From assembly GCA_000004985.1 (NCBI GenBank), contig GG738846.1: a DNA stretch of 64,000 nt; one strand, given 5' to 3'. Of this stretch, positions 2,749 to 25,211 are shown piece after piece. The translations under genes and the position numbers were made by a program. Within the stretch, counting starts at the first letter, position 1. Every line of letters starts with the position of its first letter. The notes under the pieces are model-generated. The model saw only the letters and a program-made list of their open reading frames with translations. It searched no databases and was not told where the DNA came from. Source of the stretch: Naegleria gruberi. Taxonomy: Eukaryota.

Positions 2749-4134
2749 ATGAGCGTAAAGACTTTTTCTTGGGAAGAAATTGAAAAGCACAACCATGAAG
2801 GAAGTGCTTGGTTAGTCATTCACGGAAAGGTTTATGATGTAACCAAGTTTATTCCTCAACATCCTGGTGGTGATATGATCTTGTTGGGTGCCGGTAGACA
2901 CTCTACAGAACTCTTCATCAGTCACCATCCAACCAAGACCATCACCAATACTAAATTCTTGGAAAAGTTTTACATTGGAGATGTTGAACAAGAACAATCA
3001 GTTACCAAGGAAATGGTAATCAAACAATACACAAAGCATATTTTCGCTCCTGATAGTCAAACCACGTTCTATGATGAATGTAGAGCTGAAGTCGAAAAAT
3101 ACTTTAAAGAAAATAATTTAACTCCACGTGATGTACCTGCAATGTACTTGAAGACCATTCTCTCCCTCTCTGTTTGGTTCATTTTGTACTTGGCTACCTT
3201 TTATTATTTTAATTCCATAATCCTTTCTTTGCTTGTTGCTATTGTGTGGGGTTGGTCTAATGCCAATATTGGTATGGGTATGATGCACGACGCTAATCAT
3301 GGAGGTTATTCTGATAATCCAACTATTAACAGAATTGTCGGATTGTGTTTCGATATTTTGGGTGGTTCTTCTTTTACTTGGAAGATGATTCACTCTGTTG
3401 GACACCACGTTAATACCAATGTCGAAGAACGTGATCCTGATATTCACACCAATGAACCTCATTTTAGAAAGATTAAGGAAGGTCAAAAACAACACTGGTG
3501 GTATTCATATCAACATATTTATTTGCCATTCCTCTATTGCACTTTACTTTTTGAATTGGCTTTCCGTGACTTTGCTGCCATGATGATTGGTGCTTGGGGC
3601 GGTGTTAAATTCCAACCTGCTCCAAAGAATGAATATCTTCTCTTTGTTTCTTCCAAGATGTGTTGGTTGACTTATTCATTGGCTTTCCCATTAATGTTCT
3701 CTCATCATTCTACTGCTACTGTCTTTATGTTGTGGACCATTGCTTATATGGTTGCTTCATTCATTTTGGTTTTGATGTTCCAAGTCAATCACGTCACACC
3801 ACTTACTGATACTTATCATGTTGAAAATGATGGTATGGTTCATGCTGACTGGGGTGTAACTCAAGTCAGTGGTTCTAGTAACTTTGCTTGTCGTTCTTGG
3901 TTGTGGAATCACATTAGTGGTGGTTTGTGTCATCAAACCGAACACCATCTTTTCCCAACTATTTGTCACATTCACTACCCTCAAATTCAACCAATTGTTG
4001 AAAAGTGTGCCAAAAAGTATAACATTAGATATAACGCTTATCCATCTTTCTGGGACGCTGTTGTTGGTCACTTTACCTTATTGAAGGAAATGGGTGCACA
4101 AGGAAAGAAAGTTACCGGATGGAAAGATTTGTAA
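2749..4134 (+). CDS. Front-end (delta5/delta6-type) fatty-acid desaturase with N-terminal cytochrome b5 domain; single exon.
   Basis: Cyt-b5 HPGG motif (IPQHPGGDMILL). Three histidine boxes: HDANHGG, HSVGHH, QTEHHLFP (Q-for-H box 3 is typical of front-end desaturases). Multiple TM segments between boxes. Confidence 0.85.
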   Translation: MSVKTFSWEEIEKHNHEGSAWLVIHGKVYDVTKFIPQHPGGDMILLGAGRHSTELFISHHPTKTITNTKFLEKFYIGDVEQEQSVTKEMVIKQYTKHIFAPDSQTTFYDECRAEVEKYFKENNLTPRDVPAMYLKTILSLSVWFILYLATFYYFNSIILSLLVAIVWGWSNANIGMGMMHDANHGGYSDNPTINRIVGLCFDILGGSSFTWKMIHSVGHHVNTNVEERDPDIHTNEPHFRKIKEGQKQHWWYSYQHIYLPFLYCTLLFELAFRDFAAMMIGAWGGVKFQPAPKNEYLLFVSSKMCWLTYSLAFPLMFSHHSTATVFMLWTIAYMVASFILVLMFQVNHVTPLTDTYHVENDGMVHADWGVTQVSGSSNFACRSWLWNHISGGLCHQTEHHLFPTICHIHYPQIQPIVEKCAKKYNIRYNAYPSFWDAVVGHFTLLKEMGAQGKKVTGWKDL

Positions 4135-4286
4135 ACTAGATCACAATTTTGAATAAAATTTAATTTATAAATTAATTTTCTTTTTATTAAAAAGCTTATT
4201 ATTTATGCTATTTAAATTATAAATAATAAATTATAAAAAAGCTATTTAAGCTTTATTTTAAACAACATTACATTTATTCTTAAAAA

Positions 4287-5192
4287 ATGGCAGGAAAATC
4301 AAAACGTAAAACACCCTCTAAAAAAACACCTGTTGAAACTTTATCACAACAAAACAAAAAGGAGGGAGAACAATTGAAAAGAAAAAATCCTATTCTAATC
4401 ACAAAACCAATTGTATTAGGAAATTTTGCAGTCGGAATTAAAAAGAAGGATGGTGATCAAACTTGGTGTAAATGGGTTTGTTATGTGAGAGGACTGACTT
4501 TGGATGATGACTTGAGTTATATTTCACAAATTACTTTTCATCTTCATGAATCCTTCAGCCCACCACAGGAAACAATCACCAAAGCACCTTTTGAAGTCGA
4601 AAAGGAGGGATGGGGACAATTTCCTCTACGAATTGAGATACATTTCCACGAATCAAGCGGATTACAGCCACTATCTCTTGACTATGACCTTCAATTACCT
4701 GCGGAAAGTCAAAAAAAGAAGAAAAAACCTTGTGTTTATGAAAAATATGAGGAATTACTTTTCTATGATCCTACAGAGAAATTTGAACAGTTGTTGAGAG
4801 AGAATACAGAGCAAGTTCAAAACTCTGTAAAGAAGATTAAATTATCAACAGAGATGGAATTAAAAAATGCAGATCTATCCGAATCAGAACAAGAAGTCTC
4901 CCCTTTAACATCCAAAAAACCATCGGAGGATATTTCATCTGCACCTTCGAATAGTACTACAACTAATAGGTTATCAATTGCTTCAATGATTGAACAATAT
5001 GCTACAATTATTAAGGAGGAAAATTCTCTTAAAGCACTAAATGAATTGAGTGAAAAACTGAAAGAGAAAATCAAAGAAAAAGAAGACCCATCATTTATCA
5101 AAACCGAAAGTTCTAGAACAAAAACAAAGAAATCTAAAAAGCAAACAAAGAAGGAAAGTAGTGACGAGGATGATAGTGATTATGTTGATTAA
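4287..5192 (+). CDS. YEATS-domain protein (Yaf9/GAS41-like) with C-terminal coiled coil and acidic/basic tail.
   Basis: ITKPIVLGNFAVGI...QTWCKWVCYVRG...ITFHLHESFSPPQETITKAPFEVEKEGWGQFPLRIEIHFHESSGLQPLSLDYDLQL matches the YEATS fold consensus (H-W-vYvr, FxLHeSF, PFEvxExGWGEF). Confidence 0.8.
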   Translation: MAGKSKRKTPSKKTPVETLSQQNKKEGEQLKRKNPILITKPIVLGNFAVGIKKKDGDQTWCKWVCYVRGLTLDDDLSYISQITFHLHESFSPPQETITKAPFEVEKEGWGQFPLRIEIHFHESSGLQPLSLDYDLQLPAESQKKKKKPCVYEKYEELLFYDPTEKFEQLLRENTEQVQNSVKKIKLSTEMELKNADLSESEQEVSPLTSKKPSEDISSAPSNSTTTNRLSIASMIEQYATIIKEENSLKALNELSEKLKEKIKEKEDPSFIKTESSRTKTKKSKKQTKKESSDEDDSDYVD

Positions 5193-5199
5193 TTTATTA

Positions 5200-6315
5200 T
5201 CATGGAATTGAATTCTCTACGGTATTGTTGCTTCCACTATTTCCATACTCTTTCGTCAAGATAAATCTACAAACATAACTAATCTTACAAAACACTTTCC
5301 AATAGTAAACTATTGATTTTAAGCTTGTTCCTTTTGGAGGAGTCATTGTTGAGAGATCAAAAGGATCAGATGGTAATCCTTGACTCTCAAATAAGGTAAC
5401 CACAGCTTGTTGCATGTTATTTAATGGTTGTCTGGGTGCTCCTCCAATAATAAAGTTGCTTGCTGTTGCTAAGAGAGGATTTTGAACCTTAGTGTTTGTT
5501 GAAATTCTTTCTCTGTTTCTATAGAATTGAATGAGTTGCTTGTCCCGTTGGGATTGTTTCTCTAGAAAGGTTAAATTTTGAGAAACAGATTCGATTTTTT
5601 CCTCTAAATCCCTTGTTGCCTTGACAAGTAGAGTGTTTTCCTTTGTTTTCTTTTCAATTTCAGATAAAATTTGTTTGGATTCCACATGCTGAGCTTCATC
5701 TGAATTTAATTGTCTTTTTTTCCTTTCCATTTCCACAAATTTGATTAAGAACTTTTTTGAAGTTTTCCTTAAACTTTTTTTCGTGTTTACTCCTTTTGGG
5801 GCATACCTATCTGTCAAGTTTTTAACTGCCTTCAACGACTTGTGAGATAATTGAGGGATGGGATAGGAAGTCGTATTAAGTTGTATTGGTGTTCCAGGAG
5901 TTGATGATAATGGTGTCAATCGTTTTCCTTCATCTATATGTACACTGTTTCTTCTGGGAGAGAATTTTTCCTTTTTCTTTGATTCCAAATTATTGTTCGA
6001 TAAGGCTATGATTTTACTTTGTATATTTGGTATTGTATTTACATTGGAAGATGTATGTTGATTTGGATCATTGTTTGAAGCGAGAATGGGTGAAGAAGAA
6101 GGGAAGGCATTATTTCCAACTATTGATGTTGTTGTGGTACTAGTAGAATTATTAAGGGATTGAGATTCTTTCCGTAGCAATGCATTATTAGACAATACTC
6201 TACTTTGTGAATCATTTAATTGTTGTTGAATTTGTTGATGTTGCATTGAAAATTGCATCATTAGTGAGGGAGAAGAAAACCCATGACGATTACTCTCCAA
6301 TTTATTTAGAGGCAT
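5200..6315 (-). CDS. Hypothetical Ser/Thr/Gln-rich protein with a basic segment followed by a coiled coil (possible DNA-binding leucine-zipper-like region); possible small 3' intron.
   Basis: 371-aa ORF from ATG at 6315. Basic stretch KKSLRKTSKKFLIKFVEMERKKRQLN, then heptad-like LLVKATRDLEEKIESVSQNLTFLEKQSQRDKQLIQF. No family recognised. Confidence 0.4.
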   Translation of the reverse strand: MPLNKLESNRHGFSSPSLMMQFSMQHQQIQQQLNDSQSRVLSNNALLRKESQSLNNSTSTTTTSIVGNNAFPSSSPILASNNDPNQHTSSNVNTIPNIQSKIIALSNNNLESKKKEKFSPRRNSVHIDEGKRLTPLSSTPGTPIQLNTTSYPIPQLSHKSLKAVKNLTDRYAPKGVNTKKSLRKTSKKFLIKFVEMERKKRQLNSDEAQHVESKQILSEIEKKTKENTLLVKATRDLEEKIESVSQNLTFLEKQSQRDKQLIQFYRNRERISTNTKVQNPLLATASNFIIGGAPRQPLNNMQQAVVTLFESQGLPSDPFDLSTMTPPKGTSLKSIVYYWKVFCKISYVCRFILTKEYGNSGSNNTVENSIP

Positions 6316-6567
6316 TATTTTTTATCTCTAAATTTAATTATTAATAATAAACAGCCACCTGGAAATGTATTGTTTGGAAGAGATAAATATTTCGATTTAA
6401 TTTGATAAATAAATTTATTAATGATGGTGATTTACAAGTGTAAAAAATTAGGGTATGAATAACTAGCAGTGGTCGCTCTAATAACAAGTAAATGATGATG
6501 ATTATTCCAATCTATCATTCGCATGCTATCAGTAAAATTAAATTTGTTTCAATATCTTTCCAATAAA

Positions 6568-7257
6568 TTAAACAACATAACGATATGTAACATATCTGCC
6601 AGCTGTTTCCGAAGAACGAATAATCTTTACAATAGCACCTCTTTGAAGACCATAATATCTTGCAATCGGATCCGTGACCTTCATTCTTGGTAATTGTGTT
6701 TCTTTCAATTTATATCTTTGGAGCAATTCTTCATGTTGGGCCTTGTTGAGTGGAACGTGTTGTGGCACCAAGACATGTTCTGTAATATTTACCAAAAGTT
6801 CAGTTTCCTTGAATGTTTCAAGAATATATCCAATAGCTTGAAGAGCTTCAATTGCTCTCTTAGCTTGAGAGCTGAGATCCTTTTGTTGGAATGAATCAGC
6901 TGGTCTCAAGACAAGAATAGCTCTCTTTACATTGTTATCCTTCATTTTAGAGTGATAATCCTTGATTTGTTTCATACCAATAGCTTTTGTTGCTGGGAAG
7001 AAAACAAATATCATTTCGGAAGGATCATCAGCCATTGATGTAACAATACTAAGTCTGTCTCTTCCTATTGTTGTATACCCACGGGCTTGACCAGATTGAG
7101 AAACATTATTAGGTCCTGTACCAAATTTACTTTCAAATTCAGCAAGGTCCATATTCTTTTCAGATTCAAGAACCATATAACCACGAGCATCCAACATTTG
7201 GAGGACAGTCTTTCTTATTCTCCACAAACGATAGCTTTCAGAATTTGCGTTGTTCAT
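6568..7257 (-). CDS. POLR2E: RNA polymerases I/II/III common subunit RPB5 (ABC27).
   Basis: Near-colinear with RPB5 over the full length: SYRLWRIRKTVLQMLDARGY, LVNITEHVLVPQHV, KLKETQLPRMKVTDPIARYYGLQRGAIVKIIRSSETAGRYVTYRYVV. Confidence 0.95.
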   Translation of the reverse strand: MNNANSESYRLWRIRKTVLQMLDARGYMVLESEKNMDLAEFESKFGTGPNNVSQSGQARGYTTIGRDRLSIVTSMADDPSEMIFVFFPATKAIGMKQIKDYHSKMKDNNVKRAILVLRPADSFQQKDLSSQAKRAIEALQAIGYILETFKETELLVNITEHVLVPQHVPLNKAQHEELLQRYKLKETQLPRMKVTDPIARYYGLQRGAIVKIIRSSETAGRYVTYRYVV

Positions 7258-7474
7258 TTTTTTTTGAAGTTGGTGAAAAATATTGGCAATCTATTTTTCT
7301 ATGCATAATGATAATGGCAGTTATCAAATAGTAGTTAAACTAAAATTTAAATATTTAATTAAATAATTATGTGATCAAAGTAATAAATAATAAAACCAAA
7401 ACAACATTCATAGTATTCGATTAAAAAATATTATTCAATTCTGAAGAGGAAGGAAAAAATTCGAAGATAAAAAA

Positions 7475-8687
7475 ATGTCAGAATCCAAATTAATTGCTTT
7501 CGGTAGAGTTGCCACCACTCTTGAAATCGGTATTGTTGGTTTGCCAAACGTTGGTAAATCCACCTTCTTCAACGTTTTAACTAATTCTCAAGTTCCTGCT
7601 GAAAACTTTCCTTTCTGTACCATTGATCCAGCCACATCTCGTGTTGCTGTTCCTGATGAAAGATTTGATTGGTTAGTTGGACATTGGCAACCAGCTAATC
7701 ATGTTCCAGCTATCTTGAACGTTACCGATATTGCTGGTTTGGTTAAGAATGCTTCCGAAGGTTTGTATTTAATGTTGTGATGATGTTTATTGTTATTCCA
7801 AAATAATAATAGGTGAGGGTTTGGGTAACGCTTTCTTGTCTCACATTCGTGCCACCGATGCCATCTTCCATATGGTTAGAACTTTTGATTCTAAGAATAT
7901 TACTCACGTAGAAGGTAGTATTGACCCAGTTAGAGACATCAAGATTATTGAAACTGAATTGATTAAAAAGGATATCTCCTACTTGGAAAATATTAGAGGA
8001 CCAACTGAAAAGCTTGCCAAGCAAAAGAAGGAAAAGAAGGATGAATTGGACAGTATTGACAAGGCTCTTGCCATGTTGAAGGAAGGTCGTGAAGTTAGAT
8101 TTGGTGATTGGAATGGAAAGGAAATTGAAATTTTGAATCCTCACCAATTGTTGACTACCAAACCAATGATTTACCTTGTCAACATGACTCCAAAGGATGT
8201 TGTTGATCCAGAAAAGAATGAATGGATTGCCAAGATTAGAGAATATGTCAGCTCAAAGGGTGATGCTGAACCAGTCATTCCATACAGTGCTGCTTTCGAA
8301 AAGAAATGGCAAGAAACTGATGAAGAAAAGAGAAAGGAATTGACAGGAAAGGGTATCACATCCAAGCTTCCAGAAATCATCAAGATTGGTTACAAGACTC
8401 TTAACTTGATTTACTACTTTACTGCTGGTAAGGATGAAGTCAAGGCTTGGACAATTAAGAGAGGTACTAAGGCTCCACAAGCTGCCGGTAAAATTCACTC
8501 TGACTTTGAAAAGGGTTTCATTTGTTGCGAAGTTATGAAGTTTGAAGATTACAAACAATATGGAAGTGAACTTGAATGTAAGAACAATGGTAAACTCAAA
8601 GAAAAGGGTAAAGTTTACGAAGTCGAAGATGGTGACATTATCTTCTTCAAATTCAACACTGCTGGTGGTGGTCCAAAGAAGAAGTAA
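7475..8687 (+). CDS. OLA1: Obg-like ATPase 1 (OLA1/YchF). Two exons, about 7475..7760 and 7813..8687; GTTTGT...AATAATAG intron of 52 nt.
   Basis: P-loop [15 protein letters not shown]; FCTIDP; splice restores NASEG|[24 protein letters not shown]; C-terminal TGS domain ([19 protein letters not shown]). The ORF track shows it as two ORFs, the second starting on TTG. Confidence 0.9.
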
Positions 8688-8786
8688 ATTATAAAGATAA
8701 TTAAATTATTATTATGAATGAAATTATCGATCCGAACCTAAATTGCATCCAATTTTAAAATTGCACAAAAAGTGGAAGAATAAAAA

Positions 8787-10850
8787 ATGGCACCAAATGA
8801 CGTAACAACCTTGAAAGCTTTGGAAACTGTCCACAGTATCAATCCATCCCTCTTTCTTAGTGTATGTAAAGAATTTGATATTAAATTTTATTTAAACATT
8901 GATTTATTCGGAAAATAGGCAAGAAGAGAAGAATTGAAAAATCTCCAAAGAGAAGTGTTATCATCATCAGGAAGTGCTCGTGTATTTCAAAGGCTTCCTA
9001 GATATTCGAGAAGGAGGGCCATGTCAAAAGTTCCTCACCTTCTACCAAGACATTTACGTAATGCAGCTATTAGAGAAATGACTCTTCCGAAACGAGTTAG
9101 ACAAAGAAAAAGAAGAAAGGATTTGAAAAGAAAACAACATAGAAAAGAATTTATTGTTAAATTACATGATTTACCGTCTCTCAATAATGATCAAGAGAAA
9201 AAATCATTTAGACTCTCAACACATTTATATCATGCCAAGAGAATGAAAATGGACGATAGATGGGGATTTAGAATTGCTGTAGAACATATTACGGACAAAA
9301 TATTTAGGAATGGTTACAGATATATGAGGAGACATTGCACTCTTCATGAAAGAAGTTACATGATTTGCTTGCAAATTGAGTTTAATTCAAGTGGAAATGT
9401 GGAAAAACTTTTAAAATCAATGATGCAAATCCATCAAGAATCACAATTACCATTCCATGAGGATTATTTGATTGGAAAAAGAGAGGGAACTTTCGAATGG
9501 TTGGATGATAGTAATTTTACAATTTCACCAGTGGATTTTCTAGTAAAACCTTCTGAATCAGCAAATTGTGCTAATACAATTATGATATGGCTCCATCCAT
9601 CAACTCTTCCAGAGAGCTATCATCACTTGACAGATATAGTTACAAAATTGAATGGAAAAGTACACCACAGAAATGATCTTTCAAGATTTGAAATAAGAGG
9701 GCCATTAACTATGAAAACAATTTCAAATGTCATTAGAATTCACATAGAAGATACAATTAATGAACTAAGACAAAGAAATGGCTCAGATAGTGCAATTAAA
9801 TCAATAGTTAATGAATGGGAAAGAATGAAGACAGACATTCAAATGGCAACGTCCCTCCCATCAGATATGGTTCTAGGTTTCATGGCAAAACATCCAATCT
9901 ATACATCGTCATTTAATTCAACGTTTGAAGATTACAAGAGAGAGTCTCGTTTATTGGCAAACGCTGTCACACCAAACACATCTTACACTTCTCCAAATCA
10001 TGAAGAGAATCTTAATGCATTACAAAAAAAGATTATGGTAAATATACCAAACCAATTGAATGATATTGGATTAATTTGGAGTCATTCAGAATGTAAAGAG
10101 AGATATCATTTTCCATATTTAAGAAAAAATAAGAGGACTAAAAAGTTGTATACTCAAGGTGCAGAAGGTCCAAGGTCTTTCCCAGTTATTTTGATACAAA
10201 AAACGTCTAGTTTGAATAGTGGAAGCACAATGGGAGGTGGATTTGATATTATTTTACCAACAGTAGACGTTTCTGCTCATGTTTGGTCGAAATTGTCTGA
10301 ACAAAAGAATACTATGGTTCTTCCACTTTTAGATAGGAATAGACTCTTACTAGAACAGGGTAAACGTGTATTTCCAGATGACTATCCTTCCAGTCAAGCT
10401 TTTCAAAGAATGGCAATTGAAAAGGAAGAATCAATGGAAACATTAATTCAGAATCTTTCTTGCCCTCTTCCTTCTTTCAGATCTATTCACATTTTTGGTA
10501 TTTGGGGAGGAAGCTTGGCGCCTTTTGATACCATTCACTTGCCAACCAATCCAACTCAAATCAAAGAGCTACTGAAAAGAGCCAAACCAAAATCTAAAAA
10601 GGGAGAACTAGATACCAAGATGCATGCTATACACAATTCTCTCATTGATACAACTTGTATTGGATTTGTGACTTCTGCCAATTATTCACTTTTGCGAGGT
10701 AAAAAGTTTGGAATTGGTTTCATTACGGCCAATTCAAGCCAACAACTTCCCTTCATACCAGGGCATCACCAAAACTTAATTCTTATCAAGAGAAAAGAAA
10801 AATCCAATGAATACTTTTATCCTTTTCAGGTTGCTGTTACCTCTAAATAA
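8787..10850 (+). CDS. POP1: RNase P/MRP protein subunit POP1. Two exons, about 8787..8861 and 8919..10850; GTATGT...AAAATAG intron of 57 nt.
   Basis: N-terminal POP1 signature after splicing: FQRLPRYSRRRAMSKVPHLLPRHLRNAAIREM...THLYHAKRMKMDDRWGFRIA (compare LPRHMRRRAMSHN...THIWHAKRFHM..WG). Long POPLD-type C-terminal region. The 5' exon (MAPNDVTTLKALETVHSINPSLFLS) is predicted from splice signals only. Confidence 0.7.
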
Positions 10851-15517: not shown

Positions 15518-16189
15518 TCAATCAATAGAATCTATGATATATTGTAGAGAAAATAATCTAATTGATGGCACACCATCAAAATATCTTTGACTTTTCACTC
15601 TATCGAATAAATTTGATAATAATGTTGAATTTTGATAGTCCAATCTAAGAGTTAATCCAATTTCATGGTAATGAGTTGAATTTTCATGATCTAATAGATT
15701 TTGAATTGTATTCTTGCATTCCTGATGTACTTTGGCAGCTTGTTGCATTTTCCACATCCAAAAACAAAATAAAATTACAAAGCAACACAAACATAAAATT
15801 ATAATTCCAATAATTATCAATGTTAACACTAGCTCGAATAATCCTTCATCAACAAGTAAATTTTCTCTCACCATCACAACAAATGTAACAAATAATAATA
15901 TTAGAAATAAAACAAATCCTCCAATCATGATAAAAAATAACCAGAATACAAGCCATCCGACAGGTACATTTACATTCCTTAAATAATGTTTAAATATTTG
16001 TGAAGATTCTATCAGGGTTTTTGAAATTTCATCCTCATGATCTTTAATGATATATTGAACACTGGTGAAAAATTCCAAACTCTTCAAATCCAATTTGAAT
16101 TCGGACAAACATAATTCATGTTCCTCATCTTCAATAGGATCAAATACTGATTGTTTCAGAGTTGGTTCTTGTTTTTGGATTTGAGACAT
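15518..16189 (-). CDS. Hypothetical membrane protein, 223 aa, with 2-3 TM helices.
   Basis: ATG at 16189. Hydrophobic core VGWLVFWLFFIMIGGFVLFLILLFVTFVVM and IIIGIIILCLCCFVILFCFWMW. No family recognised. Confidence 0.4.
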   Translation of the reverse strand: MSQIQKQEPTLKQSVFDPIEDEEHELCLSEFKLDLKSLEFFTSVQYIIKDHEDEISKTLIESSQIFKHYLRNVNVPVGWLVFWLFFIMIGGFVLFLILLFVTFVVMVRENLLVDEGLFELVLTLIIIGIIILCLCCFVILFCFWMWKMQQAAKVHQECKNTIQNLLDHENSTHYHEIGLTLRLDYQNSTLLSNLFDRVKSQRYFDGVPSIRLFSLQYIIDSID

Positions 16190-16248
16190 TTTTTTATTTA
16201 TTTAAAGTTTAAAATATTAAGATAATATATTATTCAGGATTATCAATT

Positions 16249-19200
16249 TCAATACACCACCTCTTCTTGATCATGATGTGAATGAAGGGATGGTTTTGTC
16301 TCCACAACTTCAATATCATTTTCTTCTAAATTTATACAACTACTTGATACTTGATGTTGTAAAGTTGGAGGGGTTTTGGAAAAAATTGGATTTACATGAT
16401 GTTTTTCTTTCAAGAGATAGGTTTGACACATTCCTTTTCCTTTCACTTCAATACTTCTCTCCTCAAATTCATACAGGTCATATATTCTTTCATATGTTGA
16501 ACGAGAAATATGGATTCTTCCTGGAATTCCAGTTGACTCCATCCTAGATGACAAATTAATAGTATCTCCCCATAAATCATAGGCAAACTTTTTACGTCCA
16601 ATCACTCCAGCGACAACACTTCCTGTATTTAATCCAATTCTGTATCAAATGAGTCAATCAATTTAGTGATAAATGAAAGTTATTAAACAATGATGAGGAT
16701 GAAATCAACACATACCTGATATTAACTTGAGAAGATGGATTTTCTGCATTATACGTTCTAATAACAGTCAGAGTTTCAATAGAGAACTTGATACACCTCT
16801 CTGGATGATCGGATTGAGGATTATTATGTAGACCACCCACACAGAAATAAGCATCTCCAATGGTTTTAATCTTTTCCAAACTGTACTTATCAGTCAGGTC
16901 ATCAAAACCATTCACAATACTATTTAACATTAGAACTAATTCAGATGGATTCATATTAGAAGATAGTTTGGTAAACCCAACCATATCACTGAAAAAACAT
17001 GTAATGTCTGCAAACTTTTCAGCAATAAAAGTTTCACCATTCTTTAATTTGGTTGCAACAGCGTCAGGTAAAATATTTCTCAATAAATTCTCAGAATTCT
17101 TTTTCTCTTCGGCAAGAAGTGCATTTTGCTTCTTTTCTGTTGTAATGTCCTTAATTACAAGTGAAATAATAATTGATCCATTATTGACCTCCGTTCCAAA
17201 TATACTTATTTGGGCTGGGAATTTTGTTTGATTTTTTCTGATACACTCAATTTCTATCACTTCACCCACAGACAGTTCATCACTGTTATCAGTTGAATGA
17301 ATTAAATGATGGGTAAGGTTTTTGATCAATTCATGTGAAATTTCATCAAATAAAATTATACAAGGCAGACCAATGACATCAGTTGCAGATTTTCCAAACA
17401 TTTTCTGTGCAGCAACATTAAAAAGTGTAATTTCTCCCTTTTCATTACATAGAACAGCCCCTTCAACCATAGAATTGAGTAGATTTCTTATGGAATCATC
17501 AGTATCAATTTTCTTTCGTTTGGTGCTATGTTTAGTCATGGTATTATACAAGGCAAAGTTTTTCAAAGTATCATTTGAATCAAAATAATCCACTGGGATA
17601 TAATTCAAAAAGGACCGAAGCATGGTAATTTCATTATCACTCATTTGATAATTCAAAAAGATTATATAATTGAAAAGTGGCAATGTAATAATCCCAACAA
17701 TAAAAAATACAATACTAATAGCCTTGGAAGAGTTTGAAGTATTGGTTGATAGAGAGTTCAGTAATTCTGTCAAACGATTAATCATTTCATCAGTTAAATT
17801 AAAAATATCGAGATAACTTATGAATGTATCTTGTCTAATTGCAAAGAATGGATTCCAAATGTCTTCGTTAAATTTGCTACAAGCATGTGTAACAATGGCA
17901 ACTAATTCCTGTAGCTTGTAACAAGTACCATTGAACGAACATGTGAGTGGTGATGTTATGATTTCGTCCACTCTCGAATACTTTCCAATAATAGGGGCTG
18001 TAACTTCACTACCAAATAATAGTTCTGTAAATCTTGTTTGAACCTCAGATATATAATCTCTATTATCTGTTCTATAGGTAGCCAATTGTGATGCAGAACC
18101 TATAGCAACATTGTTAACATTTCTACCAGGTTTAACACCCAAAAACGCGTATAGCTCACTCAATCGAACTGTTAATCTGATCGCTGCTCTCATAACAGCA
18201 GTTGCAGTGTCAATATTAACCATTGTTTCAGAGGCTGTTTGGACATTGAGATAATTCTCCATATACATCAATGAAACGTATAATGAAAAACAGAGTAATG
18301 CAAGAAATCCTACAGCTATGGATATCCATTTTGGATTCATAAACTCACCCAAATGTTTAGCCTCTTGGTTTGTCTTTCGCTGCAAGTCTTGATAGATATT
18401 TCCAATAATATCCTTGGGCAATCTCTTAAATAGAGTAATGATATTTGTCGATTTTCTCATTTCAATTCTACTGATAACTAGAAACATGGAATAAATGATA
18501 ATCAATACGCCAGTCGAAATAAATAGATAATATCTGAGAATGAGGTCAATGTCTGCATTTTGTACTCGTTTGCTTTCTTGAAATTTAGAACAAAATAGTG
18601 CATTAGCATCTGCTGCAGTTCTTCTATTCAAATACAAGTACATAAATAAATAAGATGTTATAGTTTCATTGTAATCTTTTGGTGTCCAATCAATGAATGA
18701 CTTGGTTAAGGTCATGAATTCTTGAGTGAGTTCACTCATTGATACATTCTTTTTGTAACTTGTCAAATAAGATATTGTACTCTTCTCTACTGAAGCAATT
18801 GGAACAACAATGGGATTTTCTGGGGATGTATAATCATTAAACATTTGTTCTGTATACTTTGAAGTCATTGAATTATCAGCCAGTTGTTGCAAATATAGCA
18901 AATGTCTCTCGAATCTCATTTTGTGATTTGTTGTGAAATAATTGAGTACTTTACCATCTGTTGAATTTTCATTAGGAATTGCCCAATTCTGATTACCATA
19001 TAGCTCCTTATATATTTGTCCCATTCTCACCTTTAACAATAAGCACACAATATAATATGATGAAAAACATTAAACTTACCTCTCTGATGAGGGCACTAGG
19101 TGATGTACCTGGAAGACAACTCTGAAGAGTTAATGGAATTTCTGTAACTAAACTTCCAAATATCATACATAAAGCAAAAGCCACCACTAACATTAGAACT

Positions 19201-21476
19201 GATAGAATTGACAAACCAATTAAAAACACATTTCTAAATTTTGATTGGTAGGGAGTATTGAGAGAATTTCTGAAAAACACTTGTTTCTTATCAATAGTTT
19301 CTTCTGCATTCTCAATACCGTCAAAGTGGTCTTCCTTCTCATGATCTTCCATTGGATTATCGACAAGTGTGAAGGAATTCTTTCTAATATCAAATACATT
19401 GACTGGAGAGTTTGGAGTGGAATTAAAATAGGGAGTTATCTTGTTTTTAAATCGTTTCTCGCTCTTTCCTCTGGAGAATAATGAAACTGTTCTTGTTTTT
19501 GACTCTTCTTCTTCCATTTGAAAGGCTTGTTCAAAGAGTATGGATGATGTCTCTTTATCAAATTTGAAATTTTCCAAATAACTTGCATAAAATCTCAAAA
19601 CAGTCTTGTCATGTTTAAAATTTGTCATAAGGTGGTTGAATAGTTTGTCACAATACACTGTGAGAGAGGTTGCTTTTGAATTGAGCTGAGAAATTTTCTT
19701 TTCATTTGGTAGGTCGCTTAAAACTTCTTTCCAAAACATTCTATGCACGGCCCACAATTCATCTTCTTTCCTTTCAATGTCGTTCAACATTGCCTTAACT
19801 TCCACTTGATTTATGCCATTACTTTTTGTGGAATTATCAATTTCAATTTCCTTCATTCTCTCATGAATTAAAGTTCTGGTCCATGAGTTTTCCACAAATC
19901 TGAGTGCCTTCTTCAAGATGAAAGAACTGAATGAAGTTCTATTCTCATCAACCCATTGATAGGCAATGATGAGAGCACTCGTGAGTAGAATTTCTGGTGA
20001 CTGCACGCACTTGTTTGCAATGACCAATTTAATGAAAGTTAATGCCATAGCCGAATCATCTGAATTCTCTCCTGAAAATCGAAGAAATAAATTCAAATTC
20101 CTTAAAGACTCCTGTTCCATATAGATTGCAACTGCCTCCTTTTCCATGACACTAGTGCTCTTTCTATTCTCATCGAGTGAAGTTGCGTGTATTATTCCTT
20201 TCCTTAGAACTTTCCTCACTTTATAACACACCACCCTAGTGTAAATTTCCATTGCTATTCCACCCAAAATTCCACCAACAACAATGAGAGAAAGAGTAAG
20301 GCCCATCAACCCCAAGCTCTTCTCCTTATTGTAAGTGGGATCAAAGACAAAGACTAATTGATTGATGAAAACACCAATTGATGCTCCGAAACGCCCGAAT
20401 ACTGCACTCGAATAAACACTGTTGAAATTTCTCTTCAGTAAAGGAACCAGTTTTAACAAGAGAAATATTTGTAATATGGAGCTTAAGATGTGAATAATTC
20501 CTCGAATAAAAATTAAATGTTGTGGAATTAGAAATATGACAAATATTTCCAAACCAATAGATGCTACTGTTGACATGATTGGAAAATTATCGTTGGATGT
20601 GAAAGGCAGTGAGCTATGTCCATGATTGGGCATTAACAGAATAGAACAAGATGTTGCAAAAATTATCACAGGAGCCATGCAGCACATTACAATGAATAAT
20701 ATTAAATTAGGATCTCCATGACATGCTACAGTGCTATTTCTTGTCAACATGTAAAGATAAACATTTTCCTTCTCAGCATACACCTGAACAGTGGTATTAC
20801 ATTGAATGAAATAACTCATTAGGAACATGGTTAATGGAGATAGAATGGCACAAACAGCTCCAGCTCTCTGTCTCAAGTTTCTTAAACGTGTGTGGGCTTT
20901 TCCTTTTAGAGTCTTGTACTCAATGAATAATACGAGGAAGAAGAGACAATACAACGATAACAGAATACAGGTCAGTATGATGGTGGATGTGTAGTCAATA
21001 TCATCGAGAGAGAACGTAATGGGATAGTTCAAAACTTTGAATACCCAACCAGAATAGACGCCATATGGCCCAATCACATGTTCTGTTTCCTTCAGGTCAT
21101 ATCTTGTATCGGAGGAAATGGTTGGAAATATTACATTCACCCAATAGAGGTAAGCGTAAGCCAAATAGATGAGTATCTTTTCATATTTCTTTACGCTTAC
21201 CTCACTACTCTTCACTGAAATGTAAAAATTGATAAGTTTTTCATTAAAGACATGAAGGAAGGAGCTGTGAGTATGTGAAGTGGCAGAAGTTTCTGAATTT
21301 GCTGTTGAACCTCCGTCAACAACAGACTGGGTGTAGTAGCTTAGTCCGCCACCACCACTTCCTACATGGCTTTGATTTCCTTGCAGGAAAGGAATTGTAA
21401 TATTACTTGATGAGACATTGATCAATGGTCCACTATTTGAGTGTGGCTGTTGAGGATGCAACTCATGACTTTGCAT
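16249..21476 (-). CDS. Very large class III adenylyl/guanylyl cyclase of about 1700 aa. Order: polytopic N-terminal membrane domain, helical cytosolic region, TM-flanked extracytoplasmic sensor-like loop, PAS domain, single cyclase catalytic domain. Three exons, about 19080..21476, 16716..19030 and 16249..16639; introns of 49 and 76 nt.
   Basis: Catalytic domain FADITCFFSDMVGFTKLSS...KIKTIGDAYFCVGG...VNIR|IGLNTGSVVAGVIGRKKFAYDLWGDTINLSSRMESTGIPGRIHIS...VKGKGMCQTYLL is split by a phase-2 intron exactly before the conserved RIGxxTG. PAS-like SMVEGAVLCNEKGEITLFNVAAQKMFGKSATDVIGLPCIILFDE lies upstream. Exon1/exon2 junction is GAG|GTAAGT...TTAAAG|GTG, in frame (IRE|VRMGQIY). An alternative model of two overlapping genes is less parsimonious. 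Confidence 0.6.
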
Positions 21477-22001
21477 GGTGTTGTGATATTAGTTTTAATA
21501 ACCAAAGGCGGTTCAATTCATGAGAAGAAGGTAAATTTCAATTGAGCGTTGGGCCGACTTTCAATCAGTTAAATGGATATTAAGGAGTTTAAAATGTTGA
21601 TATCCTGATTTGAATATTTTGAACAGCTCTAATAACTGTAACTGTACTGGGTGAGCGATCCTCAATTTTCTTGACATTAAAAAGGGATTTATTTTGATAT
21701 TCACAAAGTTCTATGATGAGAGAATTTAAAAGACTTTTTGACTCGAACCATCCTCAATATTTACTTGCTAATTTCAGGTTTTAAGAAGCTGATCATTAAA
21801 GAATAATGGGTGAGGAAATTGAAAGGAAAAATAAACCGTTTCATTTAAAACGTGTTCCTTGTTTGCTACAACAAAAAGGAATTCTGCTTGGGTTCTATCT
21901 TGAGTTAAGGAACATTCTAAAAAAAAACTATTATTAAAAAAACGTCTCGATTGTCGTCTTCTACCCTCTCGGAAACAAATAGCACCACCATCACGTTTAA
22001 A

Positions 22002-25000
22002 ATGTACCAAGTCTATTGTGCTGCAACAGGAAAAGCTGAGCAACAAGATCAAGTTGAGTACAAAGAATCTGTTTTAGAACTTGATGCCACAAAAAAGATT
22101 ATTCCATTCCGTCTTGCTTTGGATGAGAGCACACAATTCCTCTATCAACCAAGCAAATTTTCTATTGAGACTAATACCCCTTTAAACTCTCAACCAGCTA
22201 CTTTGCAATCTCTCGTCAATCATTCAAATTTTCTTGATGTCCAAAATATTTACGAAAGATTGAATTTGATTGTCAATCAGGCTCAAGAAATTTGTCAAGT
22301 TACTGAGGCAAGATTTGTAGAATGTGACGATAAGAAAAATAAGAGATTCATTATCCAATCAGCAAAGGACACTCTTGTATCATTTATTAGAGAAAAAACC
22401 TTCAAAAACTATTGTGATATTATTGAAGAACTCTCCAATAGTTTTTCCTCTAACAGTCAATATGTAAATGACCTCTCTTTTGAGAGCATCAAGGATGAAC
22501 TCACCCAAAACAAAACTGTAAATAACTGTGACCTCATGACTGCTCTCAAATTGGATGAGAAAATGTTATCAAACCTCATTACAACTGTAAAATCACAGCA
22601 ACAAATGATCAATTTGAATCAGAGTAAGACCTACATTCTCGAGCAATTGAATGAAATTTCAGGAAAGGACGAAGAACAAGTCGAAGAATTATCATCACTC
22701 GACCAAAGAATGCAATCACTTATCCAACACCAAAGAGAAAAGATTCAAACTCTCCTTTCAGAATACGAATCAGTTAAATTGACCAACGATGATCTTCAAT
22801 TGTACAGCTTTGAATATCAAGCAAGAAATTTGCACGAAGAAATTTTAACAATCGAAAATAATGTAAGAGAGAATCAAAGTATTTACTTGGTAAAAGATTA
22901 TGCATTCAGAGTATTATTGAACCAACAAATGTTAAAGGTTTGCGAGAGAACAACACTCATTTTGTTAATGATGAGATTTTTCAATCAATCAAAAGAAGGA
23001 GGTGCTCTTGAAAAGTTAATATTCCTCTCAAAGCTCCCAGACGTTAATAGACAATTGATGAATGAAATTGTAGCCAGAAGAGAAAACTTTGTTGAGAATA
23101 TTCTTATTCAAAACTTTAGAAGTTTTACTGAGTCTATCAAGCAAGCATGTCAAGATGAAAATGATAGAAGAGATCAAGTAGAGAAGAGTGCTATTGATGG
23201 TTTAACTGAGATTCAAACTCAAGAATTGAAATCGATTATTCCTGGTATTGTAGGGGAAAGAATTCCAATTAATCTTATAATTGATGGTCTTGCCAAATTG
23301 GAAAGAAGCATCTCTAGAACTATTGATACTCATCTTCCACAATCTAATTCAGGAGAAAATGAAGAGAATGACTTTTTCTTAATTTCAAAGCCATCAGAAA
23401 ACCTCACCCAATCCACTCATGACTTGTCAAGTATGACTACTAGTGCTTTGATTGAATATACTGACCGTAAAACTGAGGCATTACCAAATCCAAATTTTAT
23501 TTACCAAAATGTAGATAATGAATTTGTTGAAGTACCAACACAACTTTTACAATCTGTGGTACAACAACCATCTGAAGACTATTCACAACTTCAAAATACC
23601 ATTCTCATGCTTAAAAAAGAAGTTGATTCTTTGAAAGAACAACTTGAAAAGAGTGAAGAGCAAATCAAAGAGAGTGAAGAACAAATCAAAGTTAGCTATG
23701 CCAAGCTCATTGATAGAGAAAATACAATTGACGAACAAATGAGATCAATCAAAAATCTCGAAAGTAATCTTTCAGAAATGAAAAAAGAATTAGATGAAAG
23801 TGCACAATATGTTCAAACTCTCAGTAATAATGTCGAAGATTTGACCTGCAAGATTGAACAAAGTGAAAGAGAAAAGCTTCTGAACTCTGGAGTGCACTCA
23901 GAATCAGTTTCACAACTTGAATCTGTAGTAACTCAATTAGAAACATCCAAGAAGGATCTTCAAGACAAGTTGATTAGAATGGCCACTGAATTCAGCAAGC
24001 TAGACCAATCATCAAAGGCTAAAGATGAACAAATCAAGGCCAGCGATGAACAACTTAAGGCTCAAGACGAGAAAATTCATTCTGATGCCGAACAAATTAT
24101 GTTACTTACAAAGTCATTGCAAGATTCTGAATCAGTTAACGAAAAGTTACAACAAGATCTTGACTCTTTGAATGAAAAACTTGAACAACAATGTATGAAC
24201 TTGTTGTTATCTGATAGAAAAGTAGAAACTCTAGAAGAAGCAACCAAGAACCTCACTCAACAACTTGATGACTGCCAGACCGAGTTGAATGTAGTGAAGG
24301 AAGAAAGAGTTCTAGTAGAAAGAAATTTGAGAGTACAAGTTAATGAACTCACCGAATCTGTTAACAAATTATCAGAAACCAACAATCAATTGAAAGAGAA
24401 ACATTCCGACCTCTCAAATAAGCATTCTTCTACTATTTCCGAATTAGAATCCCTCTCTCAAAATTTGTTTGCTCAACACAAAACTGCTCAAGAGAACGAT
24501 ATCAAGCTGAAGGTAGCAGATGAAACTAACAAAGTTCTGCAAGAAAAACTTACTTCTAGTGAAGAAAAGTTAGCACACTCACAAGAGAAAATTAACACTT
24601 TAACCTTCGAGTTGGAAAATACCAGAACAATGCTCGAAAAAGCCAAGTCCCAACCTCCAGTAGTCCATTCACCTGTTATTTCCTCCAACAACGATGAAAA
24701 CGAAAAGTTAAAGAAAGAAGTTAAGGAACTCACCATTAAGGCTCAAATGTACGAGACAGCAACTCTTAAGAGCGCTGCCTCAGTAACTACTTTACAAAAG
24801 AAGATTCAAGAACAACAAATTGCTCTCAAAGAACAAGAAGATACACTCAAATTCCTTCAAGAGCAATATTCTCAATTAGAAAAGAGCTATATTCAAGTTC
24901 AAAACGACAAGACACAACAACCAACAGGAAAGACCTTTGTTAGTTTAGAGCCAGAATTGAATGATCTTGTCATTTTCTTCAAAGGAAACAACAGCAATAA

Positions 25001-25211
25001 GGATATTTTCACTGCTATTAGCAAGAATGCCAATAGAATTATAATAGCTCCTGAATCTCTCGGCACTTTGAAGGAAAGATATGGCGAGGCATTCGAAAAA
25101 TTGAACATTGTTGTAGGTAAAATTGTTTATTTGGAACAATCCAATCCTTCCTACAACCCATTCAATTTGAACACTCCTTACGCAACTGCTTTTATTGAAG
25201 AGTTGTTGTAA
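22002..25211 (+). CDS. Atg11/FIP200 (RB1CC1)-like autophagy scaffold, about 1070 aa, dominated by coiled coil, with C-terminal Atg11/claw-type domain.
   Basis: First ATG at 22002; the track's 21951 start is TTG. About 700 aa of heptad-rich sequence. C-terminal LNDLVIFFKGNNSNKDIFTAISKNANRIIIAPESLGTLKERYGEAF...IVVGKIVYLEQ resembles the Atg11-domain consensus (fgdlvLFlPtr...waaf...pxyfLs..sl...wivgrIv.ie). Confidence 0.45.
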   Translation: MYQVYCAATGKAEQQDQVEYKESVLELDATKKIIPFRLALDESTQFLYQPSKFSIETNTPLNSQPATLQSLVNHSNFLDVQNIYERLNLIVNQAQEICQVTEARFVECDDKKNKRFIIQSAKDTLVSFIREKTFKNYCDIIEELSNSFSSNSQYVNDLSFESIKDELTQNKTVNNCDLMTALKLDEKMLSNLITTVKSQQQMINLNQSKTYILEQLNEISGKDEEQVEELSSLDQRMQSLIQHQREKIQTLLSEYESVKLTNDDLQLYSFEYQARNLHEEILTIENNVRENQSIYLVKDYAFRVLLNQQMLKVCERTTLILLMMRFFNQSKEGGALEKLIFLSKLPDVNRQLMNEIVARRENFVENILIQNFRSFTESIKQACQDENDRRDQVEKSAIDGLTEIQTQELKSIIPGIVGERIPINLIIDGLAKLERSISRTIDTHLPQSNSGENEENDFFLISKPSENLTQSTHDLSSMTTSALIEYTDRKTEALPNPNFIYQNVDNEFVEVPTQLLQSVVQQPSEDYSQLQNTILMLKKEVDSLKEQLEKSEEQIKESEEQIKVSYAKLIDRENTIDEQMRSIKNLESNLSEMKKELDESAQYVQTLSNNVEDLTCKIEQSEREKLLNSGVHSESVSQLESVVTQLETSKKDLQDKLIRMATEFSKLDQSSKAKDEQIKASDEQLKAQDEKIHSDAEQIMLLTKSLQDSESVNEKLQQDLDSLNEKLEQQCMNLLLSDRKVETLEEATKNLTQQLDDCQTELNVVKEERVLVERNLRVQVNELTESVNKLSETNNQLKEKHSDLSNKHSSTISELESLSQNLFAQHKTAQENDIKLKVADETNKVLQEKLTSSEEKLAHSQEKINTLTFELENTRTMLEKAKSQPPVVHSPVISSNNDENEKLKKEVKELTIKAQMYETATLKSAASVTTLQKKIQEQQIALKEQEDTLKFLQEQYSQLEKSYIQVQNDKTQQPTGKTFVSLEPELNDLVIFFKGNNSNKDIFTAISKNANRIIIAPESLGTLKERYGEAFEKLNIVVGKIVYLEQSNPSYNPFNLNTPYATAFIEELL

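What the first reader, a model, noticed from the sequence alone, without database searches (positions are those of the whole stretch)
16249..21476. Nucleotidyl cyclase of about 1700 aa with an unusual fused architecture: polytopic N-terminal domain + TM-flanked sensor loop + PAS + cyclase
The catalytic domain is a canonical class III cyclase, and it is split by an intron immediately before the RIGxxTG motif. Upstream it is preceded by a PAS-like module. Further upstream, two TM helices flank a roughly 200-aa extracytoplasmic loop, as in sensor cyclases with a CHASE-type ectodomain. If the 49-nt GTAAGT...AG intron at 19031..19079 is real, this whole sensor cyclase is fused to an 800-aa N-terminal module. 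That module has about 10-12 TM helices plus a helical cytosolic region, and it matches nothing I recognise. Such a fusion would couple an unknown transporter- or receptor-like membrane domain to cAMP/cGMP synthesis. A lone PAS module between membrane sensor and cyclase is also not the textbook layout of eukaryotic cyclases.
Basis: partly seen in the sequence, partly recalled or inferred. Interest (0 to 1): 0.65.

Follow-up and report, generated by a model that had tools for sequence, protein, structure and literature searches.

The report
Naegleria TmcB-like membrane adenylyl cyclase
This is one real, correctly spliced Naegleria gruberi gene for a 1700-residue, 12-helix membrane receptor that makes cAMP; it is one of dozens of similar genes in this group of amoebae, and its large N-terminal part belongs to the poorly understood TmcB family, which Dictyostelium genetics links to cAMP signalling.

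Summary
The minus strand 21476..16249 carries three exons that splice into a 1700-aa protein. It is identical to an existing N. gruberi database entry called 'predicted protein'.

The disputed 49-nt intron is real. The spliced junction LIRE|VRMGQI lies inside a family-wide motif, and that motif is uninterrupted in intron-free relatives. One relative is a single 1736-codon ORF that encodes the whole architecture. A Pharyngomonas transcript also encodes the fusion.

Domain order:
- an 8-TM bundle
- TmcB-type TPR repeats (Pfam PF25474)
- four TM helices enclosing two extracytoplasmic loops, predicted to be helical four-helix-bundle sensors rather than CHASE
- a PAS domain
- a transducer helix
- a class III cyclase with all catalytic residues and the Lys/Asp pair that specifies ATP

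About 30 representative relatives share this order in Naegleria, Willaertia, Acrasis and Pharyngomonas. The closest paralogue is already annotated 'membrane bound adenylate/guanylate cyclase with PAS domain'. The gene is therefore an ordinary member of a lineage-expanded but unstudied receptor cyclase family.

The 8-TM module matches no solved fold. Its fusion to a cyclase hints that TmcB proteins act directly on cAMP synthesis. That hint is the only moderately novel point.

The parts
19080..21476 (-). Exon 1, codons 1-799. It encodes the N-terminal tail, the 8-TM bundle, the TPR_TmcB region, a linker, TM9 and the start of ecto-loop 1.
   Evidence: ORF list; sequence at the start codon and at the donor; spliced translation; identical public protein.
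19031..19079 (-). Intron 1: 49 nt, GTAAGT...TTAAAG, phase 0. If retained, translation shifts frame and stops after 24 codons.
   Evidence: The junction LIRE|VRMGQI is collinear, without a gap, with the uninterrupted LIREVRMRQI in L001 and LLRDIRMRQI in L002. It lies within the family motif LLRExRxxQ.
16716..19030 (-). Exon 2, codons 800 to 1571 (first two bases of codon 1571). It encodes the rest of ecto-loop 1, TM10-12, ecto-loop 2, PAS, the transducer helix and the first half of the cyclase.
16640..16715 (-). Intron 2: 76 nt, GTATGT...ATACAG, phase 2, inside the Arg1571 codon of NIR|IGLNTG.
   Evidence: The Pfam Guanylate_cyc match runs unbroken across the junction.
16249..16639 (-). Exon 3: the second half of the cyclase, a 52-aa C-terminal tail and the TGA stop.
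20247..21188 (-). 8-TM membrane bundle, residues 97-410. It has conserved extracytoplasmic motifs (WGxYGxWxFxxLNYPxTF; a Cys226...Cys252 beta-hairpin) and a cytosolic PFxRRxENS motif.
   Evidence: Hydropathy; AlphaFold2 model with pLDDT 79 and pTM 0.72; family consensus; coordinates checked.
19497..19835 (-). TmcB/TmcC-type TPR repeats, residues 548-660. They sit within a cytosolic helical-repeat region of about 430-670.
   Evidence: Pfam PF25474, 39.5 bits against a cut-off of 27; 20 of 20 relatives hit it, best E 5.7e-19.
17648..19223 (-). Sensor module: TM9 (752-776), ecto-loop 1 (777-964, contains intron 1), TM10 (965-988), a cytosolic segment with the motif IPKDxIGKIYHxL, TM11 (1033-1056), ecto-loop 2 (1057-1236) and TM12 (1237-1260).
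17141..17491 (-). PAS domain, residues 1313-1429.
   Evidence: Pfam PAS_9 at 8.3e-13 and PAS at 3.4e-7. The nearest solved relatives are the FixL/DosP PAS domains, E 1e-5.
17042..17086 (-). Signalling helix (cyclase transducer element), LLRNILPDAVATKLK, residues 1448-1462.
   Evidence: It aligns with the helix that precedes the catalytic domain of AC9 (LLRNIIPYHVAEQLK), and matches to AC5 and the ANP receptor also begin upstream of the catalytic domain. The upstream EKKQNxLLxEE segment is conserved in relatives.
16408..17023 (-). Class III cyclase catalytic domain, residues 1469-1648 (contains intron 2). Key residues: metal Asp1481 and Asp1525; substrate Lys1521 and Asp1592; Arg1571; transition-state Asn1599 and Arg1603.
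   Evidence: Pfam PF00211, 184 bits; PDB alignments; residue positions; conservation in 20-23 of 23 relatives.

Best explanation
One gene encodes a 1700-residue, 12-TM receptor-type adenylyl cyclase of a family specific to Heterolobosea.

Shown by the analyses:
- The three exons splice into one ORF.
- The domain order is 8-TM bundle, TmcB-type TPR repeats, a 4-TM sensor module with two extracytoplasmic loops, PAS, transducer helix and class III cyclase.
- The catalytic domain keeps all seven key residues, including the Lys/Asp pair that selects ATP. It carries both the metal-binding and the substrate/transition-state residues.

Inferred from what is known of class III cyclases and four-helix-bundle receptors:
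- The enzyme should work as a homodimer with two symmetric active sites.
- Both ends of the 8-TM bundle, the TPR repeats, PAS and the cyclase face the cytosol.
- The two loops each form a four-helix bundle continuous with their flanking TM helices, as in bacterial chemoreceptor and histidine-kinase sensor domains.
- A ligand or physical cue changes the packing of these bundles. TM12 and the conserved juxtamembrane segment (LRxxLNYxPxxxLDSNE) pass the change to the PAS dimer. The coiled transducer helix then sets the register of the two catalytic domains, and so the rate of cAMP synthesis.
- The TmcB-like 8-TM and TPR part probably serves as a second input or as a docking and regulatory module. 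Its specific role is unknown.
For: Gene structure:
- Splice model and identity to a public protein.
- Junction collinear with an uninterrupted 1506-aa ORF in L001.
- A fully intron-free 1736-codon ORF in L002 aligns as a single HSP to residues 101-1691 at 41% identity.
- A complete ORF from a Pharyngomonas kirbyi transcriptome has the same TM layout plus PAS and cyclase.
- About 30 representative relatives share the same domain order.

Topology:
- Eight plus four TM helices put every soluble domain on the cytosolic side. A protein starting at Met802 would have three TMs and would place either its N-terminal region or the cyclase on the wrong side.
- Conserved Cys pairs and N-x-S/T sequons lie in the loops.

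Domains:
- Pfam matches; TPR_TmcB found in 20 of 20 relatives.
- Catalytic and specificity residues are present and conserved.
- The transducer helix aligns to the one in AC9.
Against: - There is no transcript or protein evidence for this N. gruberi locus itself. The splice is inferred by comparison.
- No enzymatic data exist for any family member.
- The PAS cofactor is unknown. The heme-ligating His of FixL is not conserved.
- The 8-TM bundle has no structural or sequence relative of known function, so its role is a guess.
- Dimerisation and the signalling path are inferred from other cyclases and were not tested.
Confidence: 0.75

Rival explanations
1. Two-gene model. An independent membrane protein of about 820 aa ends at 19008, and a separate sensor cyclase of about 900 aa starts at Met802 (about 19024).
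For: Read-through of the donor gives a stop only 24 codons later, and an ATG lies just after the acceptor. N. gruberi is compact: the next gene downstream starts 59 nt after this gene's stop. Some N. fowleri relatives are annotated as split genes.
Against: - The two genes would overlap by 16 nt.
- The junction sits inside a conserved motif that is continuous in intron-free relatives.
- A transcript-derived ORF from Pharyngomonas carries both halves.
- About 30 representatives have both halves in one protein.
- A three-TM protein starting at Met802 without a signal peptide would put the cyclase outside the cell.
- The split N. fowleri models coincide with continuous ORFs or with full-length alternative annotations.
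Confidence: 0.03
2. Transceptor model. The fused protein is real, but the TmcB-like 8-TM bundle is the primary working part, acting as a channel, transporter or lipid-facing sensor. Its state drives the cyclase, or cAMP/PAS regulates it, and the ecto-loops are mainly structural.
For: - The most conserved motifs of the N-terminal half lie in the 8-TM bundle and its outer face: WGxYGxWxFxxLNYPxTF and the Cys hairpin.
- The bundle is always found with the cyclase in the relatives examined.
- Known precedents, from general knowledge, include the K+-channel-fused adenylyl cyclases of Paramecium and Plasmodium and the P-type-ATPase-fused guanylyl cyclases of alveolates.
- Dictyostelium tmcB is described as a regulator of the cAMP pathway (PMC8516963, PMC12750705, citing Muramoto 2005).
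Against: - The bundle resembles no solved transporter or channel fold.
- About 340 residues of cytosolic repeats and a disordered linker separate the bundle from the rest, and four more TM helices lie between it and the cyclase. Direct mechanical coupling is therefore less obvious than for TM12.
- No transport signature was found.
Confidence: 0.17
3. The enzyme is a guanylyl or dual-specificity cyclase rather than an adenylyl cyclase.
For: Database names for relatives say 'adenylate/guanylate cyclase' or 'guanylate cyclase domain'. Membrane guanylyl cyclases are close in sequence: the ANP receptor scores E 1e-44.
Against: The two specificity positions are Lys1521 and Asp1592, the adenine-selecting pair. 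Guanylyl cyclases have Glu and Cys/Ser at these positions. The pair is conserved in 22 of 23 and 23 of 23 relatives respectively. The best PDB matches are adenylyl cyclases.
Confidence: 0.05
4. A decaying, non-functional copy within a large paralogue family.
For: The family is very large, and the closest relatives are only 59% and 41% identical. There are no expression data for this locus.
Against: The 1700-codon reading frame is intact, both splice sites are canonical, all catalytic residues are retained and the family motifs are conserved throughout.
Confidence: 0.04

Closest known systems
Naegleria 'membrane bound adenylate/guanylate cyclase with PAS domain' paralogues (e.g. XP_002674931 and XP_002672713 in N. 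gruberi; relatives in N. fowleri, N. lovaniensis, Willaertia magna, Acrasis kona and Pharyngomonas kirbyi)
   Same: The full domain order is the same, as are the TM layout and the conserved motifs, including the one that spans the intron-1 junction. Identity is 59% and 41% to the two closest.
   Different: The relatives are separate paralogues. Intron positions differ: L002 has none, and L001 has one at FSDM|VGFT instead. No member has been studied experimentally, as far as my searches show.
Dictyostelium TmcB/TmcC ('tiny macrocysts protein B') family, Pfam PF25474 TPR_TmcB
   Same: They share the TmcB-type TPR repeat domain above Pfam's cut-off. TmcB is linked genetically to the cAMP signalling pathway (PMC8516963, PMC12750705).
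   Different: Here the module is covalently fused to PAS and a cyclase. I could not test whether Dictyostelium TmcB also has the 8-TM bundle and the four-TM sensor module, because its sequence could not be retrieved.
Dictyostelium ACG and trypanosomatid receptor adenylyl cyclases
   Same: An extracytoplasmic sensor joined through the membrane to a single homodimerising class III catalytic domain (general knowledge; PMC9928731 summarises ACG).
   Different: ACG has a CHASE-type sensor between two TM helices, and the trypanosome enzymes have a periplasmic-binding-protein-like ectodomain with one TM. This protein has tandem helical bundles, 12 TM helices, a PAS domain and a TmcB module.
Bacterial four-helix-bundle sensors (Tar/Tsr, PcaY, NarQ, TorS, NasR NIT domain)
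   Different: No detectable sequence similarity. Two bundles sit in one chain. The output is PAS-cyclase rather than HAMP-kinase or methyl-accepting domains. The fold class is generic.
Mammalian membrane adenylyl cyclases (AC9, AC8, AC5) and mycobacterial Rv1625c/Cya
   Same: The class IIIa catalytic domain and the preceding transducer helix are shared. These are the best PDB sequence matches, E 1e-71 to 1e-47.
   Different: The mammalian enzymes are pseudo-heterodimers with 2x6 TM and two complementary catalytic halves. This protein has a single complete catalytic domain and an unrelated membrane part.
Channel- or pump-fused cyclases of alveolates (K+-channel-AC of Paramecium/Plasmodium; P4-ATPase-GC of Apicomplexa/ciliates)
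   Same: A large polytopic membrane module of another kind sits N-terminal to a class III cyclase (general knowledge).
   Different: The membrane module here is unrelated to channels or P-type ATPases, and it matches no solved fold.

Membership tests
Class III nucleotidyl cyclase (Pfam PF00211) | Full-length match to the catalytic-domain profile above the curated cut-off | tested here: met
   184.4 bits against a cut-off of 21.9, covering profile positions 3-182 of 183.
Class III nucleotidyl cyclase (Pfam PF00211) | Two metal-binding Asp, the phosphate-binding Arg and the transition-state Asn and Arg all in one domain, making it competent as a homodimer | tested here: met
   D1481, D1525, R1571, N1599 and R1603 are present and conserved in 20-21 of 23 relatives.
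Adenylyl (not guanylyl) cyclase | Lys and Asp at the two base-specifying positions | tested here: met
   K1521 in IKTIGDAY and D1592 in YDLWGDT; conserved in 22 of 23 and 23 of 23 relatives.
Adenylyl (not guanylyl) cyclase | Measured conversion of ATP to cAMP | not testable with these tools
   Needs an enzyme assay.
PAS domain | Match to a PAS profile above the cut-off | tested here: met
   PAS_9 49 bits against 27; PAS 30.7 bits against 22.6.
Heme-binding PAS of the FixL/DosP type | Proximal His on the F-alpha helix (His200 of B. japonicum FixL) | tested here: not met
   The aligned position is Ile here and is hydrophobic in 39 relatives. No His is conserved in that helix.
TmcB/TmcC ('tiny macrocysts B') family | TmcB-type TPR repeat domain (PF25474) above the cut-off | tested here: met
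   39.5 bits against 27; found in 20 of 20 relatives, best E 5.7e-19.
TmcB/TmcC ('tiny macrocysts B') family | Homology of the polytopic membrane parts to those of Dictyostelium TmcB | not testable with these tools
   No Dictyostelium sequence could be retrieved. The single-sequence exhaustive search reached only Heterolobosea among the looked-up hits that carry an organism name; several had none. The profile word-index search returned nothing.
   No CHASE or Cache Pfam match at E<=1. The loops are predicted to be almost entirely helical, and the best fold matches are four-helix bundles.
Four-helix-bundle (4HB_MCP/NIT-like) sensor domain | An antiparallel four-helix bundle whose first and last helices continue into TM helices | tested here: inconclusive
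Known transporter or channel folds (for the 8-TM bundle) | Structural superposition over most of the membrane domain | tested here: not met

The most novel reading that the evidence does not exclude
The heterolobosean fusion works as a 'Rosetta stone' for the enigmatic TmcB family. On this reading, TmcB-type 8-TM/TPR modules are membrane sensors or transceptors that directly control class III adenylyl cyclases. That would explain why loss of stand-alone TmcB disturbs cAMP signalling in Dictyostelium sexual development. It would also predict that TmcB-related proteins elsewhere, for example the one in the Chlamydomonas ciliary proteome, partner physically with cyclases. The 8-TM bundle would then be a new fold of signalling membrane domain.
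Probability: 0.25. Interest if true: 0.6.

Novelty: new member of a known kind. Interest (0 to 1): 0.4.

Why it matters
Naegleria has one of the largest cyclase repertoires of any eukaryote: at least 81 cyclases in the genus pangenome (PMC9928731). A substantial number of them (about 30 representative clusters across Heterolobosea here) use this one 12-TM TmcB-PAS-cyclase design, and no member has been characterised.

Settling the gene model has practical value. Several N. fowleri relatives are annotated as split genes, so cyclase counts and drug-target lists for the pathogen are affected.

The fusion also gives a testable hypothesis for the function of the widespread but unexplained TmcB family, namely direct control of cAMP synthesis. 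It also defines a compact soluble fragment (PAS, transducer helix and cyclase) and a double four-helix-bundle ectodomain that could be expressed to search for ligands.

Tried and rejected
- Word-index homology searches failed. The full protein returned only itself plus generic cyclases. Residues 1-1306 returned only itself. A 20-sequence profile of the N-terminal half returned nothing. The exhaustive HMMER search was needed to find the family.
- The bacterial promoter and terminator scan around the junction is irrelevant for a eukaryote and showed nothing above chance.
- I tested whether loop 1 and loop 2 are an internal duplication. hhalign gave a probability of 8%, so this is not supported at sequence level.
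- A heme-PAS reading, suggested by the FixL/DosP matches, was rejected because the proximal His is not conserved.
- The CHASE/Cache reading of the ectodomain was rejected.
- I looked for stand-alone versions of the N-terminal module without PAS or cyclase. The shorter hits I checked were ORF fragments of intron-split fused genes.
- Literature searches for TmcB, tmcC, 'tiny macrocysts' and TmcB plus cyclase found no description of this fusion. The Naegleria genome paper and Muramoto 2005 are not held.
- The N. gruberi DNA of the nearest paralogue, P0013, could not be fetched.
- There is no paralogue elsewhere in the window.


Full report
**What is there.** The window has 29-41% G+C and is eukaryotic. 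On the minus strand, three ORFs follow one another: 21476..19008 (822 aa), 19048..16658 (796 aa) and 16605..16249.

The sequence at the first boundary reads ...ATC AGA GAG | GTAAGTTTAATG...TTGTTAAAG | GTG AGA ATG GGA CAA.... The second reads ...AAT ATC AG | GTATGT...TTGATACAG | A ATT GGA TTA AAT ACA GGA.

I removed 19079..19031 (49 nt, phase 0) and 16715..16640 (76 nt, phase 2). This gives a 1700-codon ORF ending in TGA at 16249. That protein is 100% identical over 100% of its length to a public entry, 'predicted protein [Naegleria gruberi]'.

**Is the 49-nt intron real?** No transcript data for this locus were available, so I tested the splice by comparison.

An exhaustive HMMER search with residues 78-1261 found 118 relatives. 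About 30 of the representative proteins are 1400-1800 aa long. They carry, in the same order, the N-terminal membrane region, the helical region, both loop regions, PAS and the cyclase. The hits that carry an organism name come from N. gruberi, N. fowleri, N. lovaniensis, Willaertia magna, Acrasis kona and Pharyngomonas kirbyi.

Three pieces of evidence are decisive:
- Contig L001 is a Logan assembly. Its ORF clusters at 90% identity or more with N. fowleri FDP41_003060. It holds an uninterrupted 1506-codon ORF that is 41% identical to this protein. It reads CLPGVAPSSLIREVRMRQIMIEL where the spliced product here reads CLPGTSPSALIRE|VRMGQIYKEL, with no gap.
- Contig L002 clusters with N. gruberi XP_002672713. 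It holds an uninterrupted 1736-codon ORF that aligns as one HSP to residues 101-1691 at 41% identity. The entire architecture therefore exists without any intron.
- P0111 is a complete ORF from a Pharyngomonas kirbyi transcriptome assembly. It has the same 8+4 TM layout followed by PAS and the cyclase.

The junction lies inside the family motif CxPxxxPxxLLRExRxxQ, in which Arg801 and Gln804 are nearly invariant.

Topology agrees with this. With 8+4 TM helices, every soluble domain is cytosolic. A protein starting at Met802 would have three TM helices and no signal peptide, and its cyclase would end up outside the cell. The two-gene alternative is effectively refuted.

**Anatomy, N to C.**

1. 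*Residues 1-96.* A low-complexity tail.

2. *Residues 97-410: eight TM helices.* The AlphaFold2 model has pLDDT 79 and pTM 0.72. A short beta-hairpin lies between TM3 and TM4, bracketed by the near-invariant Cys226 and Cys252. The strongly conserved segment WGxYGxWxFxxLNYPxTF lies between TM1 and TM2. The basic motif PFxRRxENS follows TM6. These features fit a topology with both ends in the cytosol.

3. *Residues of about 430-670: cytosolic helical repeats.* Residues 548-660 match Pfam TPR_TmcB at 39.5 bits against a cut-off of 27. All 20 relatives tested match the same family, best E 5.7e-19.

4. *A disordered linker.*

5. *Residues 752-1260: the sensor module.* It comprises TM9 (752-776), loop 1 (777-964), TM10 (965-988), a short cytosolic segment with the motif IPKDxIGKIYHxL, TM11 (1033-1056), loop 2 (1057-1236) and TM12 (1237-1260). 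The model of residues 741-1300 is confident (pLDDT 87, pTM 0.79) and almost entirely helical. Long helices run straight out of and back into the TM helices.

   Conserved Cys pairs (787/946 and 1163/1169) and conserved sequons (KNxS, YNxT, NCT) in the loops fit an extracytoplasmic location.

6. *A conserved juxtamembrane segment*, LRxxLNYxPxxxLDSNExLxNF (residues 1270-1295).

7. *PAS (1313-1429).* The closest solved relatives are the heme PAS domains of FixL and DosP (E 1e-5). The heme-ligating His is not conserved in this protein or in 39 relatives, so the cofactor or ligand is unknown.

8. *A transducer helix.* The sequence ...EKKQNALLAEEKKNSENLLRNILPDAVATKLK aligns with the helix that precedes the catalytic domain in AC9.

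9. *Class III cyclase (1469-1648).* The Pfam score is 184 bits. All key residues are present: D1481, D1525, R1571, N1599 and R1603, plus the adenine-specifying K1521 and D1592. They are conserved in 20-23 of 23 relatives.

**How it most likely works.**

Shown: this is one polypeptide with the architecture above, and its catalytic domain is complete on its own.

Inferred from established knowledge of class III cyclases:
- It acts as a homodimer with two symmetric ATP sites.
- The coiled transducer helix sets the relative position of the two catalytic domains.

Inferred from the predicted fold and from the analogy with chemoreceptor and histidine-kinase sensors:
- The two ecto-bundles bind a ligand or sense a physical cue.
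- They move TM12 and so change the PAS dimer and the helix register.
- The PAS domain may add an intracellular input.

The TmcB-like 8-TM and TPR half is the unexplained part. It matches no solved structure. I rate a docking, regulatory or second-sensor role as most likely. A 'transceptor' role, in which the bundle itself is the main input, is the chief rival at about 0.17.

**Comparison with what is known.** The gene is a member of a large heterolobosean paralogue family. Its nearest member (59% identity) is already annotated 'membrane bound adenylate/guanylate cyclase with PAS domain'. The Naegleria pangenome paper counts at least 81 cyclases in the genus (PMC9928731). The lone PAS between membrane and cyclase is therefore normal for this lineage, even though it is unusual among textbook eukaryotic cyclases.

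The protein is not ACG-like in its sensor, since no CHASE or Cache domain is present. It is not related in its membrane part to mammalian 2x6-TM cyclases, or to the channel- and pump-fused cyclases of alveolates.

The N-terminal module belongs, by its TPR domain, to the TmcB/TmcC ('tiny macrocysts') family. Two papers, citing Muramoto et al. 2005, describe Dictyostelium tmcB as a regulator of the cAMP pathway in sexual development (PMC8516963, PMC12750705). A 'tiny macrocysts protein B-related' protein is listed in the Chlamydomonas ciliary methylome (PMC11244166).

I found no paper that describes a TmcB-cyclase fusion. I could not retrieve a Dictyostelium TmcB sequence, so I could not test whether the membrane parts are also homologous.

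The gene model is already in public databases, and the architecture is the common one of a lineage-specific family, so this is a new member of a known kind. The remaining interest lies in the fact that the whole family is uncharacterised, and in the hint that TmcB modules act directly on cAMP synthesis. Interest 0.4.

Noticed in passing
L001 538-5058 (Logan SRR29240419 contig); also the clusters listed: Several N. fowleri family members look mis-annotated as split or truncated genes. FDP41_003060 is annotated at 951 aa, but a protein in the same cluster (90% identity or more) is a continuous 1506-codon ORF. FDP41_007427 and FDP41_007428 (178 + 1512 aa) correspond to a 1724-aa product in another annotation. 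FDP41_000410 and FDP41_000411 correspond to a 1700-aa product.
   Followed up: partly
L001 about 5050-5146; L002 754-5964; window 16640-16715 and 19031-19079: Intron positions are not conserved among paralogues. L002 has no intron at all. L001 lacks both introns of this gene but has one of about 70 nt at FSDM|VGFT, inside the first metal-binding motif of the cyclase.
   Followed up: partly
window 15518-16189 (-) and 16190-16248: The next gene downstream encodes a 223-aa protein with hydrophobic, TM-like stretches and no Pfam family above cut-off. Its ATG lies only 59 nt after the cyclase stop codon, so the 3' UTR, terminator and next promoter must be extremely compact or overlapping.
   Followed up: partly
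window 21951-25211 (+): A divergently oriented ORF of 1086 aa lies about 475 nt upstream of the cyclase start. It is rich in E, K, Q and L, which suggests a coiled coil. It has only sub-threshold Pfam hits (ATG16, PspA).
   Followed up: partly
residues 1270-1295 (window about 17543-17620) and 1003-1015: Two short cytosolic motifs are conserved across the family and have no known counterpart. LRxxLNYxPxxxLDSNExLxNF lies between TM12 and PAS. IPKDxIGKIYHxL lies between TM10 and TM11. Both are candidates for the signal-relay elements.
   Followed up: no
L003 252-2981 (-), next to a paralogue at 4001-9075: A TrkH-family cation transporter gene lies divergently next to another family member in an N. 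fowleri-like contig. This is probably coincidental.
   Followed up: no
The word-index protein search missed this whole family: it returned only the query itself or nothing, although 118 relatives exist. TM-rich, low-identity families seem to swamp its candidate list. A negative result from that tool alone would have wrongly suggested an orphan.
   Followed up: yes
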